From Octopus vulgaris (Eukaryota), in the NCBI GenBank assembly GCA_951406725.2, contig OX597814.1:128030001-128094000 (forward strand): DNA of 64,000 nt, given 5' to 3'. The position numbers and the translations under genes are program-made. How positions within the stretch are numbered: position 1 is the first letter of the stretch; every line of letters starts with the position of its first letter. The notes below the pieces were generated by a model. It was not told the origin of the DNA, searched no databases, and was given only the letters and a program-made list of their open reading frames with translations. This document shows positions 19,494-61,289 of this stretch, in pieces.

Positions 19494-20720
19494 CAGGGGT
19501 TGGACAAAATAATAGAAACACCTTAAAATTTCAAACAAATTTATTTTAATATGGGTCAGGACCACCTTTGGCAGTAATTACAGCTTGCATTCTATGAGGT
19601 ATAGACTCGTACAAAGTTTGAATTGTTTCCAAAGGAATATTTGTCCATTCTTCAGCTAAAACAGTCTCCAGTTCTTGTACTTGTTTTTCTAAAATGCACC
19701 ATAAATGATCAATAATATTGAGATCTGGGGACTGTGATGGCCAGATAAGATGTTCAGCTTCCCTAAAATGAATGTTCCTTGTGCCATTCAGTAACAGCTT
19801 TTGCTGTGTGAATTATCATCCTGAAAGATTACGTTTTCTTCCAGAAACAGTCCCACAACCATAGGATGAATTTGATCAGATAAAATGCTTAAATAGCTTT
19901 GAGTATTAATTCTGCCATGAAGGGAGACCATTGGACTAGCGGATTTCCAAGATATAGCCCCACCAGATCATCACAGATCCTCCTACATGTTTAACAATTG
20001 GAAGAAGGCAGTCTGGGTCTAATGCTTCTTGTGGCTGTCTCCACATGTATACTCGGACAGTAGTCAGAAATAAGGTAAAGGATGACTCGTCTGAGAAAAT
20101 AACATTCTTCCATTGCTCTGGGGACCAATTCTGTAGGTTTTTACTCCAATCTAAATGCTTTGCAACGTTTGTTTTTGAAAGTAGTGGTTTTCTGATTGCA
20201 GCCCTCCCGTGAAATCTGGTTTTGTGCAGCTCCCAGTGAACAGTTTTTGTGGAAACTGGTTTCTCAACGTGGTCATTAAGCTCTGCAGTAATTTTGGGAG
20301 CTGTACTTTTGTGATCCTTTCTATCAATTCGCATAAGAGTCTGACAGTTCCTATCTGAAAGTTTTGGTTTTCTTCAGGAGATTTGTTATGACGAGGAGGT
20401 TTTCCCCTCTTTCTCAACGGTTGCCATTACTTTTGAGACAGTATTTCTTGATTCACCAAACATTTCAGCTGTTTTTGTCGCGCTAGTACCTGCCATATGA
20501 GCACCGACAATTTGACCTCTTTGAAAGTCCAATAGATCTGTCATTTTAATGAACTTTAATTACCTTTATCTTGTGATATCTGAAAAGAAACAGCAATTTT
20601 AGCAAAACATATTAAGCAACACTAACAATAAATCAAAAAACATAAAAATAAACTACCTTTTGACAGTTTTATAGAAATTTCAAAATTATGATGCTATGAT
20701 GCTAGGTGTTTCCATCATGT
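19494..20720 (-). mobile_element. Degenerate Tc1-like transposon
   Basis: TA-CAGGGGTTGGACAAAATAATAGAAACACC TIR, partial opposite TIR at about 20705-20720. Transposase motifs VIFSDES, GGSVMIW, FQDDN, WPSQSPDLNII. Confidence 0.88.
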
Positions 20721-53389: not shown

Positions 53390-53749
53390 ATGTATGTATG
53401 TGTGTATATATGTCTGTATTTATATATATATAAAATATGAATTAGAGATAAAACCACTATGATGCAACTCAAACAGTGTAGACATAAACCAATACATAAA
53501 AACAAATAATATATATAATTAATATAATATATATGGAGGCGCAATGGCCTAGTGGTTAGGGCAGCGGACTTGCGGTCGGAGGATCGCGGTTTCGATTCCC
53601 AGACCGGGCGTTGTGTGTGTTTATTGAGCGAAAAAACACCTAAAAGCTCCACGAGGCTCCGGCAGGAGGTGGTGATCCCTGCTGTACTCTTTCACCACTC
53701 TAAAGGCGGTGCTCCAGCATGGCCGCAGTCAAATGACTGAAACAAGTAC

Positions 53750-54269: not shown

Positions 54270-55668
54270 GTGTTAATCGCAGGAAGTCGTAAGGTGGTGT
54301 TTTGGTAGCTTGTCGGAATATCGTTCATTGGTTCATATATACTTTGTGGAGAGTTTGTTGGATTGTTACGTTGTTACTACCCTGCTTCGTTATATGTTTT
54401 ATTGTTACTACACAGTTATAGTGCTAAATAGTATCGCTATAACAAAGAGGATTCGAAGCTCACACAGGTCAGTTAACAAATTTTTTGTGATACAAAATTG
54501 TTGATGATGGAAGACCTGTTAGCTTCTCTAATACAATTGCAAAAACAGCAGAAAGAACAGCAACAGGAGGTGCAGAAACAACTACTGCAGCAACAAGAAA
54601 AACAACAACAGTTAATGGAGCTATGTCTTAAGAGGTTTGGAAATACTATAAGTTTGTTTTCACCAGACAGCACATCAAAATCTATAACAGAATTCAGTTA
54701 TGACCCAGAGGAGGGTATAATGGTTGCAGTGTACTTTAAAAGGTATGAAGAAATCTTTAAGGAAGATTGCAAGTCGTGGACGGACAAGGAAAAAGTAAGA
54801 TTGTTATTATGCAAATTAGCACTGGCTGAACATGAAAAGTATTGTTATTTCATACTACTCAAAAAACTAGTGAAATTTGTTTCCAGGAAACAGTCAATCT
54901 ACTATCAAAAATATTCAGTGATAAGAGTTCTTTATTTAACACTCGGTGGGAGTGTTGGAATCTAGTTAAAAAAGAGGATGAAGACTTTGTTACATATGCC
55001 AGGACCGTAAACCGAATGTGTGAAAGTTTAAACTGAAGAAACTAACTCCTGATATGTTTAAGTGCCTCGTTTTTGTACAAGGGCTCATGGCAAAAAATGT
55101 TGCGGAGATATGTGCAAGAATTCTCACAAAACTTGAACAAGCAGACCAAAGTTTAACCCCACAGACAGTTGCAGAGGATTATCAAAGAATGGTAAACTTA
55201 TGTCAGGACATAAAGAAAATTGAAAAGAAGTTCTCACAAGTACAAGTGCATTGGCCAGGAAGGTATAAACAAAAAAAATAAATAAAATAAGATGAAACTG
55301 ATGCTACAGATGTGGAGCCCCACATTTCAGGAAGGATCGTCTTTTCAAAACACAAAAATGTTGCAGTTGCCAAATTGTAGGATACAAGAGCTCACATTGT
55401 AAAGCAAAGTTAAGAAGGTCAACATGTTTTCTCAACAGAAAGTAGAAGTGACACCAAAAAGAGGAAATTTGTTCATGTAAAAGTAAACGAAGGTGCAGGA
55501 GTGGCTGTGTGGTAAGTAGCTTGCTTACCAACCACATGGTTCCGGTTTCAGTCCCACTGCAAGGAACCTTGGGCAAGTGTCTTCTACTATAGCCTCGGGC
55601 TGACCAAAGCCTTGTGAGTGGATTTGGTTGACGGAAACTGAAAGAAGCCCATCGTATATATGTATATG

Positions 55669-55747
<79 letters not shown>

Positions 55748-57350
55748 TTGTCTTCCTAACATCGCTTGACAACCGATGTTGGTGTGTTTACTTCCCCGTA
55801 ACTTAGCATTTCGACAAGAGAGACCGATAGAATAAGTACAGGCTTACAAAAGAATAAGTGCTGGGGTCGATTTGCTCGACTAAAGGCGGTGCTCCAGCAT
55901 GGCCGCAGTCAAATGACTGAAACAAGTAAAAGAGTAAAAAAGAGAGAAGTGGATATTAAATTACAACTAGATACTGGTAGCAACATCTCAATTATTAATA
56001 CCAACACATGGAAAAGAATTATGAAACCTATGTTAAGAAAAACATCAAAATTCCACGAGGCACAGGAGTGGCTGTGTGGTAAGTAGCTTGCTTACCAACC
56101 ACATGGTTCTGGCACCTTGAGCAAGTGTCTTCTACTATAGCCTTGGGCTGACCAAAGCCTTGTGAATGGATTTAGTAGACGGAAACTGAAAGAAGCCTTT
56201 CGTATATATGTATATATATGTGTGTGTGTATATGTTTGTCTGTGTTTGTCCCCCCAACATCCCTTGACAACCGATGTTTACGTCCACGTAACTTAGCGGT
56301 TTGGCAAAAAAGACCGATAGAATAAGTACTAGGCTTACAAAGAATAAGTCCTGGGATCGATTTGCTCAACTAAAGGCGGTGCTCCAGCGTGGCCACAGTC
56401 AAATGACTGAAACAAGTAAAAGAGTAAAAGAGGGTAAAGGGAGGAATGACAAGTGAAAAACTACATTTTGTAGGCGAAATGTGGAGTGATATCGGGGAAA
56501 AACCTATAGAGCAAAAGTTTTTATGGGAAGCAATGCAACCAATCTGTTCTGTAGAGACTGGTTGGAGTTGTTTTGTTCATGGGACTTCCCCATAAGTCTG
56601 TTCTGTAAAAAAAAATAAATAGCTGTCTTACCAATGAAAATAGCTCAGCAGCTGATTTGAAGAAGAAATTAAAAAACTTGTTTCCTGAAGTGCTGTAGGA
56701 TAAATTAGGTCTCTGTTCTAAGACTGAGGCCTGTTTTCAAATAAAGGAAAATATCGTACCTGTATTCAAACCTAATAGAAAGGTAGCAGTTGTTGTGATA
56801 AAGCAGGTAGAGGAAGAATTAGACAGAGTGGAGATGGGAATTATTCAAAAAGTATATTATTCTAAGTGGACAGGACCAACTGTGTATTAAAAAGAAAATA
56901 ACAAAATCATGGTGTGTGCTGATTTTTCTACTGCCATATCCAATGCCTACTCTGGAGGATATTTTTTGCAAAATTAAATAGTGGCAAAATATTTTCAAAA
57001 CTGGATCTGTCTGATGCATGTCTACAAATTAAAGTAGACGAGGAATGCTTGAAGCTTCTAACAGTGAATACGCAAAGAAGACTATACAAATATAATAGAT
57101 TGCCATTTGGTCTGAAGGCTGCACCTGCAATATTTCAAGTTATGGATATGATGTTGTTGAACTGTCAGTTTGCAATTCTGTACTGTGGTGATGTATTAAT
57201 TAAAAGTGAAACTTGTGATCAGCATATTGAACATGTGTGCTTTTTAAAAAATAAAAGATTACAGTTTCACACTCAGTGAGGAGAAATGTGAATTCTTTGT
57301 GCCTAAAATTAAATATTTAGGAGAAATTATAGATAAAAATGGAAGATGAT
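54270..57350 (+). mobile_element. Decayed Ty3/Gypsy LTR retrotransposon (gag-protease-RT), interrupted by two SINE A copies
   Basis: Gag TEFSYDPE..YFKRYEEIF, zinc-knuckle remnant CYRCG..H, protease LQLDTGSNISII, RT IFSKLDLSDA, RLPFGLKAAPAIFQ, degenerate YxDD. Putative LTR end ..TTAACA at 54478. Confidence 0.88.
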
Positions 57351-59010
57351 CAAGAAAGTGAATCTCATTGACCTTTTTGTGTGCACAGTTTGTAACAAAG
57401 TATGCCTTTCTTTTGCTGGGCTCAAATCTCATTTGTGGACTCATGAAAAATGAATCTACTAACTATATGGGTGAAAAATGACATCTTATATAGTTAAGAA
57501 ATTCTTGGCTTTGTTCATTGCAACAATAAAGCTTTTTTGTAGAGGATTAAAGCAGATTCTATCCTTTTCTTGATTCTTGTCTTCTGTGCAGTGGATGGCA
57601 TCTTATTGTTACACCCCAATAACTTCAGCTCTTATACCAATTGCTATAGTTTTCTCTGAAACCAGACAGAGGAAGACTGTAACAGAAATGTCAATTGGAT
57701 AAACAGGCAAGTTAAACTAATGACTGCTTGGATTGAATCTTGACATTCTTGGCACTTGATAGAAGTACACTTCACTCTGAAAGGAAATCTACAGTTTTGT
57801 TTACTGATGTTCCCGTCCAGCAAACTCTCTCCGAACTAGCAGTTCCATTTAGTTCACTGATGTACAAAAAGCACCATCCGATCGTGGCCGTTGCCAGCCT
57901 CGCCTGGCCTCCATGCCAGTGGCATGTAAAAAGCACCATCCGATTGTGGCGGTTTGCCAGCCTCGTCTGGCACCTGTGCTGGTTGCACGTAAAAAGCACC
58001 CACTACACTCATGGAGTGGTTGGAGTTAAGAAGGGCATCCAGCCGTAGAAACATTGCCAGATCAAACTGAGCCTGGTGCAGCCTTCTGGCTTCCCAGACC
58101 CCAGTTGTACCATCCAACCCATGCTAGCATGAAAAGCGGACGCTAAACGAAGATGATGATGAACAATGATATATTGACTCACAATGCTCACTCCAGTCAG
58201 AGTTCACTAGCAAAGCTGTTCATACAGGTGCAGGAGTGGCTGTGTGGTAAGTAGCTTGCTTACCAACCACATGGTTCTGGGTTCAGTCCCACTGCGTGGC
58301 ACCTTGGACAAGTGTCTTCTACTATAGCCTCGGGCTGACCAAAGCCTTGTGAGTGGATTCGGTAGACAGAAACTGAAAAGAAGCCTGTTGTATATATGTA
58401 TATATATGTATGTGTGTGTATATGTTTGTGTGTCTGTGTTTGTCCCCCACCCACCATCATCACTTGACAACTGATGCTGGTGTGTTTATGTCCCTGTAAC
58501 TTAGCAGTTCGGCATAAGAGACTGATAGAATAAGTACTAGGCTTACAAAGAATAAGTCCTGGGGTCGATTTGCTCAACTAAAAGGCGGTGCTCCAGCATG
58601 GCCACAGTCAAATGACTGAAACAAGAATAAAAGAGTAAAAGAGTATAAAAGAGTATCAGCCTGAAGACTGTGTACCCACAGGGAAAATTCAGAATGCTAC
58701 AAGATCGCCTTCATTAAAATAAATATATTATTAATCTCTACAATGCTGCTGAGAACACTTTCTTCTGATAGTTAATATAACACACACACATTTATGTATC
58801 GTTCAGTAGATCATAAATCCGAAAAGAAGCTCACTCCAAAACTTTAATATCATTTAATTGTTTCAGTTATAAGACTGCAGACATGATAATCAATCCCAAT
58901 CCTTATTTATATATATATAAAGGGAAAGTTTACGAAAATAAACAAAAGACGAAGGCAGGTGGAGTACAAACAAACAAATGTATTAGTATAGCGCCCAGGA
59001 ATAGAAAAAG

Positions 59011-59048
59011 TCTTTTACGTTTCGAGCCTACGCTCTTCGACAGAAAGA
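59011..59048 (-). ncRNA. Ultra-minimal HHR-like motif (A6U variant); duplicate at 60079-60116
   Basis: UCUUU-CUGUCGA-A-GAGC(GUAG)GCUC-GAAA-CG-UA-AAAGA. Confidence 0.6.
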
Positions 59049-59705
59049 TACACAGAAAAAACAAGGAGAGAAAAAAATGTGTGTAGGAGCTAACGATCTA
59101 TCATGGCGTACACACATACAGACATATATACATATATACGATTGGCTTTTTTCACCTTTCATATATCAAATCCACTCACAAGGCTTGGATCTATAGTAGA
59201 AAACACTTTCCCAAGATGCCATGCAGTGGGAATGAACCCAGAATTATGTGGTTGGGAAGCAAGCTTCTTACCACACAGTCAACATATGTACACACACACA
59301 CACACACATGTGCCTTTGGTGCAGGTGTGGCTGTGTGATTAAAAAGCCTGCTTTCCAAGGATATGGTCTTAGGTTTAGTTCCACAGTGTGACACCTTGGG
59401 CAAGTGTCCTCTACTACAGTCCCAGACCAACCAAAGCTTTGGCCGTAGCAAATACTTGCAACACCGGTGTTAGTTCACTTACTGTTTTCCAATTCCTTGC
59501 TGTCTGAGCATGCTAGGTGTGAGAACATGGTAATGAAAATGTTCGCTAAGGCAGAGATGTGTCTTACTTTAAAGATAGTAAAATGTTGAGTTAAGAGAAA
59601 TTTAACTAGTATTTCTAACAGATGAAACGATCATGAAAAGACATATCTTGTATTGCTGATTGCTCGAATGTTTTTTCATTGGTTATATATGTGAGTGATG
59701 TATGG

Positions 59706-59770
<65 letters not shown>

Positions 59771-59862
59771 ATATTAATTCGAGACAAAACCACTATTTTG
59801 CAAAACAAACAAGGAAAGACTTAATCAATACATAAAAATTTTTAATATAAAGAAATAAACCG

Positions 59863-59905
59863 CCACTACAATCGTTTCATGTCTTCAATGACATTCGTCA
59901 GGTGG
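59863..59905 (-). ncRNA. Minimal type I hammerhead ribozyme (left arm)
   Basis: Exact reverse complement of 60313-60355. Confidence 0.8.
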
Positions 59906-60312
59906 ATTTTCGATCTCCCAATCTGTTTTAATTTATATTAAATTAAAACAATATATATATCAATCCCAATCCTTATTTATATATATAAAGGGAAAGTTTA
60001 CGAAAATAAACAAAAGACGAAGGCAGGTGGAGTACAAACAAACAAATGTATTAGTATAGCGCCCAGGAATAGAAAAAGTCTTTTACGTTTCGAGCCTACG
60101 CTCTTCGACAGAAAGATACACAGAAAAAACAAGGAGAGAAAAAAATGTGTGTAGGAGCTAACGATCTATCATGGCATACACACATACAGACATATATACA
60201 TATATACGATTGGCTTTTTTCACCTTTCATATATCAAATCCACTCACAAGGCTTGGATCTATAGTAGATATAGTATATAATATAAATTAAAACAGATTAG
60301 GAGATCGAAAAT

Positions 60313-60355
60313 CCACCTGACGAATGTCATTGAAGACATGAAACGATTGTAGTGG
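60313..60355 (+). ncRNA. Minimal type I hammerhead ribozyme (right arm), canonical core
   Basis: CCAC-CUGACGA-AUGUC(AUUGAA)GACAU-GAAA-CGAUUG-UA-GUGG; predicted cleavage after 60351. Confidence 0.8.
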
Positions 60356-60534
60356 CAGTTTATTTCTTTATATTAAAAATTTTTATGTATTGATTAAGTC
60401 TTTCCTTGTTTGTTTTGCAAAATAGTGGTTTTGTCTCAAATTAATATTATATAATATTTTACTATAAAATTGGATTTAATCCTAAATCTGATTTTTTCCC
60501 TGTAAATTTGGATTTATTCCCTAATATTTATTAT

Positions 60535-60607
<73 letters not shown>

Positions 60608-60869: not shown

Positions 60870-60904
60870 GTTTCTGATGAAGAGCTCCGCTCGATACGTT
60901 AAAC
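60870..60904 (+). ncRNA. Ultra-minimal HHR motif, GAAA mutated to GAUA
   Basis: GUUU-CUGAUGA-A-GAGC(UCC)GCUC-GAUA-CG-UU-AAAC. Confidence 0.62.
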
Positions 60905-61102: not shown

Positions 61103-61289
61103 CTGTGTGTTAATGGAAAGAAGGCTATCATCGGCATCTCACTCAACAATGGCATGTGGCAGCATGTTTCTGTAACTTGGGCCAGTAAGGAAGGAAAATG
61201 GCAGCTTTATCGGAATGGCACAAGAATTGCACATGGAGAAGGACTTGCTACAGGGACCATGTTGCCTGTAGGCGGAAAGTTGTTTATTG
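61103..61289 (+). CDS. SVEP1: SVEP1-like exon: pentraxin domain, middle part
   Basis: cctttag|CTG ... G|gtaaat (phase 0-1, after a 19.6-kb intron); LCVNGK...LNNGMWQHVSVTWASKEGKWQLYRNG...GGKLFIG. Confidence 0.92.

What the first reader, a model, noticed from the sequence alone, without database searches (positions are those of the whole stretch)
59765..60540. Best-preserved element: two identical canonical hammerheads in divergent ~180-bp arms
Arms at about 59765-59940 and 60277-60452 differ at only a few positions. Each has a full CUGACGA/GAAA/GUA core with 4-bp stem I and 5-bp stem II. A tail (60453-60540) and (TA)n on both flanks complete the PLE-type structure. It is likely young, and one ribozyme is sense to the host pre-mRNA about 750 nt before an exon.
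Basis: partly seen in the sequence, partly recalled or inferred. Interest (0 to 1): 0.75.

Follow-up and report, generated by a model that had tools for sequence, protein, structure and literature searches.

The report
Spliced Penelope RNA pasted twice, back-to-back
This is a dead insertion of a Penelope-type jumping gene: two back-to-back copies of its short front end with the intron precisely missing, likely copied from its spliced messenger RNA and joined through 312 bases duplicated from nearby DNA; hundreds of such intron-free copies likely explain why these elements were thought to keep their introns when they move.

Summary
The arms, two identical hammerheads, tail and (TA)n flanks are real. 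The hammerheads are not canonical, and arm-arm pairing is predicted to abolish their fold in host pre-mRNA.

1. Both arms join a 27-nt exon exactly to a splice acceptor that, in longer copies of an ORF-coding Penelope-like element, lies across a 1.1-kb GT-AG intron. Exact exon-junction matches number 130, 353 and 11 in three subfamilies, with alternative donors. They pile up at an Inr-like start, whereas exon-1 copies reaching further upstream mostly keep the intron.
2. In 72 of 74 simple head-to-head pairs one arm ends at a short site and one at a long site, as two-site priming predicts.
3. The 312-bp spacer is a 99% copy of DNA 1.07 kb upstream; 4 of 5 long spacers in the family sample are local copies.

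Inverted pLTRs with hammerheads are known, and this scan already noted two-site priming on other DNA. I found no paper on abundant intronless PLE copies. No RNA evidence was obtained.

The parts
58889..59200 (+). Local donor of the spacer: end of a pLTR of another, high-copy PLE-like family, (CA/TA) repeat and start of a SINE
   Evidence: 99.0% over 312 nt to 59959-60268. Only full-length near-identical match among 40 scored of 1709 candidates; next best 88% over 17-296, or up to 97% over part.
59708..59764 (.). Left (TA)n target flank; no target-site duplication can be discerned
59768..59936 (-). Left arm: exon-1 remnant (59936-59915) joined to exon 2 (59914-59768), ending at the short site, no tail; inferred cDNA primed at the short site
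59863..59905 (-). Type I PLE hammerhead, antisense to the host gene; predicted cut between 59867 and 59866
59937..59958 (+). Junction filler: 12-nt snap-back copy of the arm start (TAAATTAAAACA) plus (AT)n
   Evidence: read from the sequence; similar snap-backs at other junctions
59959..60268 (+). Templated copy of flanking DNA 58889-59200, same orientation; carries a degenerate third hammerhead of another family at 60080-60115 (-)
   Evidence: its right junction is bridged with 0 differences by contigs of runs X1 and X2
60269..60281 (+). Junction filler beginning with a repeat of the donor end (TATAGTA): iterated templated synthesis, inferred
   Evidence: alignment
60282..60303 (+). Exon-1 remnant (+6 to +27 from the inferred start site); in unspliced copies it is followed by GTATGT and a 1095-nt intron
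60304..60450 (+). Exon 2 / pLTR body, beginning at the splice acceptor (TTTTAG|ATCG in unspliced copies) and running to the short end site
60313..60355 (+). Type I PLE hammerhead with 2-bp helix III, sense to host; predicted cut after 60351
60451..60538 (+). Tail (~85 nt) between the short and the long end site; holds a predicted 13-bp hairpin (60466-60495); in intact elements it ends ~55 nt before the ATG
   Evidence: z = -2.0
60539..60600 (.). Right (TA)n target flank
61103..61289 (+). Next host exon (pentraxin/LamG half-domain of an SVEP1-like gene; the gene name is recalled from the domain order)
   Evidence: AG and GT borders read

Best explanation
This is a promoterless, non-coding insertion of a Penelope-like element whose two head-to-head arms lack the element's intron exactly and are likely cDNAs of its spliced, uncleaved mRNA 5' end, likely primed from both strands of a (TA)n target at two fixed sites and likely joined after one cDNA end copied 312 bases of flanking DNA. 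Steps: (1) An intact element is transcribed from an Inr-like site (TTC-ACTT) and the 1.1-kb intron 27 nt downstream is spliced out. Shown: exact GT-AG junctions in DNA. Inferred: the RNA and its start. (2) The element's RT-endonuclease cuts both strands of (TA)n and starts cDNA at two internal sites ~175 and ~260 nt from the RNA start, one per strand, probably on one RNA. Shown: the end pattern. Inferred: the priming. (3) Both cDNAs run through the uncut hammerhead towards the RNA start. (4) Their 3' ends join by microhomology, here after template jumps: a 12-nt snap-back, a 7-nt iteration and a 312-nt copy of flank 0.6-0.9 kb away. Shown: the copy. Not known: RT or host repair polymerase. Consequence (inferred): start-site mRNA yields short intronless dead copies; only longer read-through RNA, in which this intron is mostly not spliced, carries the promoter, so propagating copies keep the intron. 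The hammerheads here are most likely silent passengers.
For: Splicing. L064 holds exon 1|GTATGT...1095 nt...TTTTAG|exon 2, then tail and an RT ORF. Exact counts in subfamily A: joined 130, intron|exon 2 57, exon 1|intron 11. Subfamily B: joined 353 against 288 unspliced acceptors; all 100 listed junctions sit at GT donors of the matching variants (75 ACTT|, 16 ACTTGAAA|, 8 ACTTGTAA|, 1 ACTTGTAT|). Subfamily C: joined 11. Start site. Of 127 sampled spliced arms, 0 carry promoter-side sequence; starts pile up at +1 to +9. Exon-1 arms with at least 6 nt upstream: A 12 unspliced vs 5 spliced; B 95 vs 5 among the first 100 of 209. Two sites. 72 of 74 simple pairs are long+short, 2 long+damaged, none long+long or short+short. 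The long arm is the more truncated one in 13 of 72 pairs, so its partner holds sequence that it lacks. This matches in vitro extension of both strands from two RT start sites bounding the tail (PMC11167929, parts 1-2 read). One RNA or source. 21 of 21 listed B pairs share the junction type (my count; p ~2e-5 if independent); the 5 unspliced pairs fetched are unspliced in both arms. Uncleaved template. 166 of 195 arms span the cut site, with no pile-up there. Local capture. 4 of 5 spacers of 40 nt or more in spliced pairs are 93-99% copies of flank within ~1.1 kb; 2 more among loci picked for long gaps (L186, L189).
Against: No RNA data were obtained, so the start site, cap and splicing are inferred from DNA. 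A minority of spliced arms do extend upstream of the start: A 5 arms at 3 loci; B 3 of 24 loci, one by ~300 nt in both arms. Concordant arms and near-perfect palindromic junctions (L182, L183) fit fold-back of one cDNA equally well. Within-pair divergence (1.7%) is only slightly below between-locus divergence (2.1%). The G at -1 (14 of 24 arms reaching +1, against genomic C) suggests a copied cap, but most cases can also be read as microhomology with the other arm. No intact ORF of this window's own subfamily A was seen among the 20 loci fetched; intact ~838-aa ORFs are subfamily B, whose pLTR is 87-88% alike. 30 of the 108 loci were chosen as best matches to the long arm, which biases the truncation counts. 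One long spacer (L185) has no local source within 2 kb and one (L091) is simple repeat.
Confidence: 0.75

Rival explanations
1. Same spliced template but one priming only: a single cDNA from the long site folds back at the RNA 5' end, copies itself to the short site and anneals to the other (TA)n end; uneven arms come from later deletion at the palindrome centre.
For: Arms are concordant in splice form and start. Overlapping or palindromic junctions are common: about 47 of 74 gaps are negative. Self-priming was proposed for PLE palindromes (PMC3846280, Discussion read). Snap-back fillers exist at this locus.
Against: It needs extra deletions for the 13 of 72 pairs whose tail arm is the shorter one and for the 13 of 108 loci with only a short arm. 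It does not explain why no second arm reaches the long site (0 of 74). In vitro the PAc enzyme extends both strands from two sites (PMC11167929).
Confidence: 0.15
2. The short form is a non-autonomous intronless subfamily (SINE- or MITE-like) that lost the intron once and multiplies from its own master copy.
For: Copies are short, young and uniform. A few spliced copies carry 70-300 nt of upstream sequence and could act as masters (L157, L182, L183).
Against: Exact intron loss recurs in three diverged subfamilies and at four junction variants that follow each variant's GT donors. Most copies lack any upstream promoter sequence.
Confidence: 0.04
3. The spacer is an assembly error, or a later local duplication unrelated to the insertion.
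For: Palindromes flanked by (TA)n are hard to assemble. No listed contig spans the whole element.
Against: Contigs of runs X1 and X2 (two samples, two studies; one may be the assembly's own source) bridge 60208-60309 with 0 differences, at depths 29 vs ~16 and 81 vs ~55 for unique flank, as a partly two-copy sequence predicts. Copy and donor differ at two places. The copy fills the inter-arm gap almost exactly here and at five other loci.
Confidence: 0.04
4. The sense hammerhead is an active intronic ribozyme that cuts or regulates the host pre-mRNA.
For: The core is intact, sense to the host and 752 nt before an exon. Pair 10.1-11.1 covaries across subfamilies (A-U in A, U-A in B), so the motif is maintained in the element.
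Against: Helix III is 2 bp and has probability ~0.003 even in the arm alone. In the whole element all ribozyme bases are predicted to pair with the antisense arm. Related PLE ribozymes are inactive alone or need the element's protein (PMC4209133; PMC11167929).
Confidence: 0.02

Closest known systems
EN+ Penelope-like elements with inverted pLTR and tail (Penelope of D. virilis, Adineta Pen2; PMC3846280 sections 6 and 11 read; PMC8557442 passages read)
   Same: Head-to-head inverted pLTR, tail on one end only, (TA)n target, hammerhead in the pLTR, Inr-like TCACT start, 5'-UTR intron just after the start and ending just before the hammerhead, single ORF with RT and C-terminal GIY-YIG-like motifs.
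   Different: These papers state that PLEs retain introns and suggest an antisense or unspliced template. Here exon-junction copies outnumber intron-bearing acceptors (130 vs 57 in A; 353 vs 288 in B). The intron is 1.1 kb (75 bp in Penelope), the tail ~85 nt (30-40 typical), and the insertion has no ORF.
Poseidon_Ac (PAc) in vitro TPRT (Frangieh et al. 2024, PMC11167929; main text and part of methods read)
   Same: Two internal RT start sites bound the tail, both strands are extended, targets are AT-rich, and uncleaved RNA is the template.
   Different: Here the sites lie upstream of the ATG rather than ~110 nt inside the ORF, and each insertion uses one site of each kind. In the parts read the paper does not address splicing or inverted products.
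Opposite-strand pairs of minimal hammerheads (Cervera and de la Pena 2014, PMC4209133; parts 1-2 read)
   Same: Dual hammerheads 100-700 bp apart on opposite strands, ascribed to truncated PLEs; variants with a small palindromic helix III; intron end next to helix I in D. virilis.
   Different: A10.1-U11.1 instead of G-C and no bulged base. Their origin as intronless copies and the nature of the spacers were not described in the parts read.
L1 twin priming and templated local insertions (PMC11702581, passages read)
   Same: [quoted passage not shown]
   Different: L1 twin priming gives non-overlapping segments from variable sites and ends in poly(A) (recalled). Here both arms cover the same ~175 nt from fixed sites and the inverted product is the rule.
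Non-LTR retrozymes (Li et al. 2026 bioRxiv 10.64898/2026.07.22.740005; part 1 and passages read)
   Same: Non-coding, type I hammerhead, PLE-derived.
   Different: Not a tandem array here; no unit bounded by cut sites; it is the 5' end of a coding element.

Membership tests
EN+ Penelope-like element | Single ORF with PLE-type RT and GIY-YIG endonuclease | tested here: inconclusive
   Intact 837-840-aa ORFs follow the same pLTR and tail. RT motifs (DIDNYYSSI, PMGAP, YRDD), a cysteine linker and VVYKC...VYIGST were read by eye (motif assignment recalled). Pfam and PDB gave no meaningful hit. Atlas look-alikes at 0.95-0.98 carry HTH_animal, GIY-YIG and RVT_1. The window copy itself has no ORF.
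EN+ Penelope-like element | pLTRs in tandem or inverted arrangement with a one-sided tail | tested here: met
   tandem pLTR-ORF-pLTR in L064
EN+ Penelope-like element | Hammerhead in the pLTR | tested here: met
EN+ Penelope-like element | Spliceosomal intron in the 5' UTR/pLTR | tested here: met
   GT-AG intron in long copies of three subfamilies; precisely absent from this copy
Neptune/Nematis/Hydra clade of PLEs | RT phylogeny; cysteine linker before the EN; (TA)n targeting | tested here: inconclusive
   A cysteine linker and (TA)n targeting are present. No reference sequences were available and no tree was built, so 'Neptune-like' is a lead only.
Canonical type I hammerhead | Conserved core CUGANGA, GAAA, UH | tested here: met
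Canonical type I hammerhead | 6-bp helix I, G10.1-C11.1, Rfam-level match | tested here: not met
   4-bp helix I, A-U at 10.1-11.1, no Rfam hit
Canonical type I hammerhead | Self-cleavage | not testable with these tools
   needs an in vitro assay
Non-LTR retrozyme | Tandem units each with a hammerhead | tested here: not met
   single unit per strand here; short tandem arrays only at L065 and L188
Processed (spliced) retrocopy | Exact exon-exon junction at GT-AG borders of a source with the intron | tested here: met
Processed (spliced) retrocopy | Matching spliced RNA and capped start | not tested
   no RNA reads could be laid; the -1 G excess is only suggestive
MITE / DNA transposon with terminal inverted repeats | Fixed symmetric termini and a conserved interior | tested here: not met
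   outer ends are asymmetric (short and long), inner ends vary, spacers are locus-specific

The most novel reading that the evidence does not exclude
Penelope-like elements do not retain introns by a special replication route. Their start-site mRNA is spliced and copied by default, from two fixed sites on one sense RNA, into hundreds of tiny back-to-back dead copies. The intron survives only because it escapes splicing in read-through RNA, the only template that carries the promoter. The same two-ended reaction routinely copies neighbouring DNA into the junction. This would settle the sense-versus-antisense template question and explain intron retention, the tail and the inverted pLTR together.
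Probability: 0.55. Interest if true: 0.82.

Novelty: new variant of a known kind. Interest (0 to 1): 0.66.

Why it matters
Intron retention and the head-to-head inverted repeat are the two unexplained hallmarks of Penelope-like elements. PMC8557442 calls the significance of intron retention unknown. PMC3846280 leaves antisense self-priming versus unspliced sense template open. This family keeps hundreds of young insertions that record the template (sense, intron removed, uncut by its ribozyme, starting at one site) and the priming pattern (one short and one long end per event). That makes both questions testable by RNA start mapping and by an exon-junction search in other PLE-bearing genomes. 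It also suggests that many 'solo pLTR', MITE-like or hammerhead-SINE annotations may be processed PLE 5' ends, and that these insertions make local duplications and ~175-bp intronic hairpins that are likely editing substrates.

Tried and rejected
Rfam scan of the window: no hit. Pfam on the element ORFs and PDB by sequence: nothing meaningful. RNA evidence: no RNA holder on record was listed and no RNA run was laid, so expression and splicing in RNA are open. Presence/absence: runs X4 and X5 have ~3-4% diverged flanks and show no listed contig across the spacer-arm junction, but the table was cut and contigs cannot show absence; not used as evidence. Pile-up of 5' ends at the ribozyme cut: not found; 8 of 39 truncated arms start within ~10 nt, none clearly at it. 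One versus two RNA molecules from shared variants in subfamily A: inconclusive. Orientation and side of captured flank: all geometries fit, no test. The 3'-side control for local copies gave 10 of 89 hits, which I read as ordinary neighbouring repeats that do not fill a junction; the capture claim therefore rests on gap-filling and. Cap-derived G: suggestive only. Arkhipova 2003 (PubMed 12524543) is not held; its content is known to me only through citing papers. Literature searches for intronless PLE copies or PLE twin priming (listings only, except the papers named) found none. Subscription papers, Repbase/Dfam notes and supplements were not seen and may describe them.

Full report
OBSERVATION. 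The window is G000:C1:128030001-128094000 of a 2.8-Gb genome. Earlier notes of this scan call the organism an octopus; I did not test that. Inverted arms of 176 nt at 59768-59943 and 60275-60450 are 97.7% alike. Helix III has only 2 bp, pair 10.1-11.1 is A-U, and Rfam finds nothing. The motif is kept by the element: subfamily B has U-A at that pair and a palindromic AAUU loop. The host gene runs on + (Ephrin_rec_like, EGF, EGF, EGF, Pentaxin, Pentaxin among 90 frames scanned), and the predicted cut lies 752 nt before the exon at 61103.

FAMILY. The arm has 1143 first-look candidates (40 scored), and its 34-nt core has 279 exact matches. I analysed 108 distinct loci with 195 arms: the 30 best matches to the long arm, loci from the first 100 core matches, and a few more. 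Of these, 74 are simple head-to-head pairs, 28 single arms and 6 complex. In 72 of the 74 pairs one arm ends at a short site ~175 nt from the start and the other at a long site ~260 nt from it. Two pairs have a damaged second end. None is long+long or short+short. The 'tail' is the stretch between the two sites. It holds a predicted 13-bp hairpin and ends ~55 nt before the ATG of intact elements.

THE ARMS LACK AN INTRON. Some copies diverge from the window's arm 22-27 nt after its start. L064 shows why: there the leader ends in AG|GTATGT, a 1095-nt intron follows, and TTTTAG| precedes the hammerhead exon, the tail and an RT ORF. Both window arms join these exons exactly (60303/60304 and 59915/59914). 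Exact genome-wide counts for this subfamily are 130 joined, 57 intron|exon 2 and 11 exon 1|intron. A sister subfamily with intact 837-840-aa ORFs has its own exon 1. It gives 353 joined copies against 288 unspliced acceptors, and all 100 listed junctions fall at GT donors of the matching sequence variants, including an alternative donor 4 nt away. A third subfamily gives 11 joined copies. Recurrent, exact, donor-specific loss points to spliceosomal splicing of a sense RNA, not to one deletion.

WHERE THE TEMPLATE STARTS. Spliced arms begin mostly at +1 to +9 of an Inr-like TTC-ACTT; PMC3846280 notes TCACT in Adineta pLTRs. None of 127 sampled arms carried promoter-side sequence. Among arms with exon 1 plus at least 6 upstream bases, subfamily A has 12 unspliced and 5 spliced (4 of these 5 are among the 130, and all 11 donors are among the 12). 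Subfamily B has 95 unspliced and 5 spliced among the first 100 of 209. So RNA that begins at the start site is spliced and RNA that reads in from upstream mostly is not (Fisher p ~1e-13 on 125/5 vs 0/12). Exceptions exist: L157, L182, L183 and L190 are spliced yet extend 55-300 nt upstream in both arms. A likely reason for the contrast, from general knowledge and untested, is that a 27-nt first exon is defined by the cap and has no acceptor when it lies inside a longer RNA. A G at -1 in 14 of 24 arms reaching +1, where the source has C, may be a copied cap but overlaps with microhomology. Of 195 arms, 166 span the ribozyme cut site, so the template was uncut, as in vitro for PAc (PMC11167929).

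TWO PRIMINGS OR FOLD-BACK. In 13 of 72 pairs the tail arm is the more truncated one, in 20 the short arm, and 39 are about equal. Five tail arms stop at 164-203, near the short site, as classical twin priming would give. Thirteen loci have only a short arm. This favours two primings. The arms of a pair agree in junction type in 21 of 21 listed B pairs (my count), and 5 of 5 unspliced pairs fetched are unspliced in both arms. One RNA, or at least one source, therefore served both arms. That agreement also fits fold-back, which remains the main rival.

THE SPACER. 59959-60268 is a 99% copy of 58889-59200. It spans the junction of two different repeats, and the local copy is its only full-length near-identical match among 40 scored candidates. 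Fillers on both sides look templated: a 12-nt snap-back of the arm start on the left and a repeated TATAGTA on the right. Four of the five spliced pairs with gaps of 40 nt or more are filled by 102-387-nt copies of flank (L001, L062, L063, L066); the fifth is simple repeat. Among 15 further loci, most picked for long gaps, L186 and L189 are two more, while L185 has no local source. Contigs of two runs bridge the right junction with no difference, at depths that fit a partly two-copy sequence, so misassembly is unlikely. Templated local inserts are known as rare L1 outcomes (PMC11702581, passages), and host-DNA spacers of another kind in Adineta Pen1 (PMC3846280).

FUNCTION AT THIS LOCUS. There is no promoter and no ORF. 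In a + transcript every ribozyme base is predicted to pair with the antisense arm (MFE -329 kcal/mol; stem probabilities 0.0). In the arm alone helix III has probability ~0.003. Cleavage of the host pre-mRNA is unlikely; a long double-stranded stem is the more plausible effect. Divergence of about 1% per copy supports a young age.

WHAT IS KNOWN. Inverted pLTRs, tails, (TA)n targeting, 5'-UTR introns and opposite-strand hammerhead pairs are described (PMC8557442 passages; PMC3846280 sections 6 and 11 plus passages; PMC4209133 parts 1-2; PMC2377424 passages and part 3 of section 3; PMC3681739 passages). These papers hold that PLEs retain introns and leave the template open; PMC2377424 suggests selection against intronless copies. 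My searches found no report of abundant intronless genomic PLE copies or of twin priming as the source of the inverted pLTR. Arkhipova 2003 and subscription papers were not available. Earlier notes of this scan, read after my reading was fixed, describe two-site priming for retrozymes in this genome and PLE acceptors spliced to host mRNAs. In the listings I saw, none describes the element's own intronless copies or local capture.

VERDICT. The locus is one ordinary dead insertion of a known class, and its ribozymes are probably silent. Its anatomy, repeated across the family, gives DNA evidence on how these elements copy themselves and why the surviving ones keep their intron. New variant of a known kind; interest 0.66.

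Noticed in passing
window 60080-60115 (-) and 59012-59047 (-): Degenerate minimal hammerhead of another, high-copy PLE-like family (core CUGUCGA, G-C stem II), duplicated along with the spacer.
   Followed up: partly
window 60871-60903 (+): Another worn hammerhead-like motif (CUGAUGA...GAUA) in a repeat between the element and the exon.
   Followed up: partly
window 53424-53522: Older, 77% alike fragment of a related pLTR, next to a tRNA-like SINE and (TA)n.
   Followed up: no
window 54270-57400 (+): Decayed LTR-retrotransposon-like stretch with an RVT_1 hit at 56923-57276, interrupted by SINEs.
   Followed up: no
window 19549-20373 (-): Tc1/mariner-type transposase remnant (HTH_Tnp_Tc3_2, DDE_3).
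   Followed up: no
window 26086-63507 (+): Host exons with Ephrin_rec_like, EGF and pentraxin domains, an SVEP1-like order (name recalled).
   Followed up: partly
L065:4596-5219 and L188:1900-2250: Insertions with tandem 69-nt (unspliced acceptor plus hammerhead) or ~107-nt (spliced exon 1 plus hammerhead) units: possible embryos of retrozyme-like arrays.
   Followed up: partly
L123, L136, L138, L139: Subfamily B pLTRs hold several tandem promoter/exon-1 units with different donors, and some elements have multi-kb inverted arms.
   Followed up: no
L114:3838-4750: Two head-to-head insertions of different subfamilies side by side in one (TA)n tract; older PLE ends also abut the window's right (TA)n at 60607.
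   Followed up: no
L121, L127, L128 ORFs: Asparagine-rich linker between RT thumb and endonuclease, as reported for Adineta PLEs (PMC3846280).
   Followed up: no
L185:1921-2097: A ~110-nt spacer between spliced arms with no source within 2 kb: possibly captured from afar or from another RNA.
   Followed up: partly
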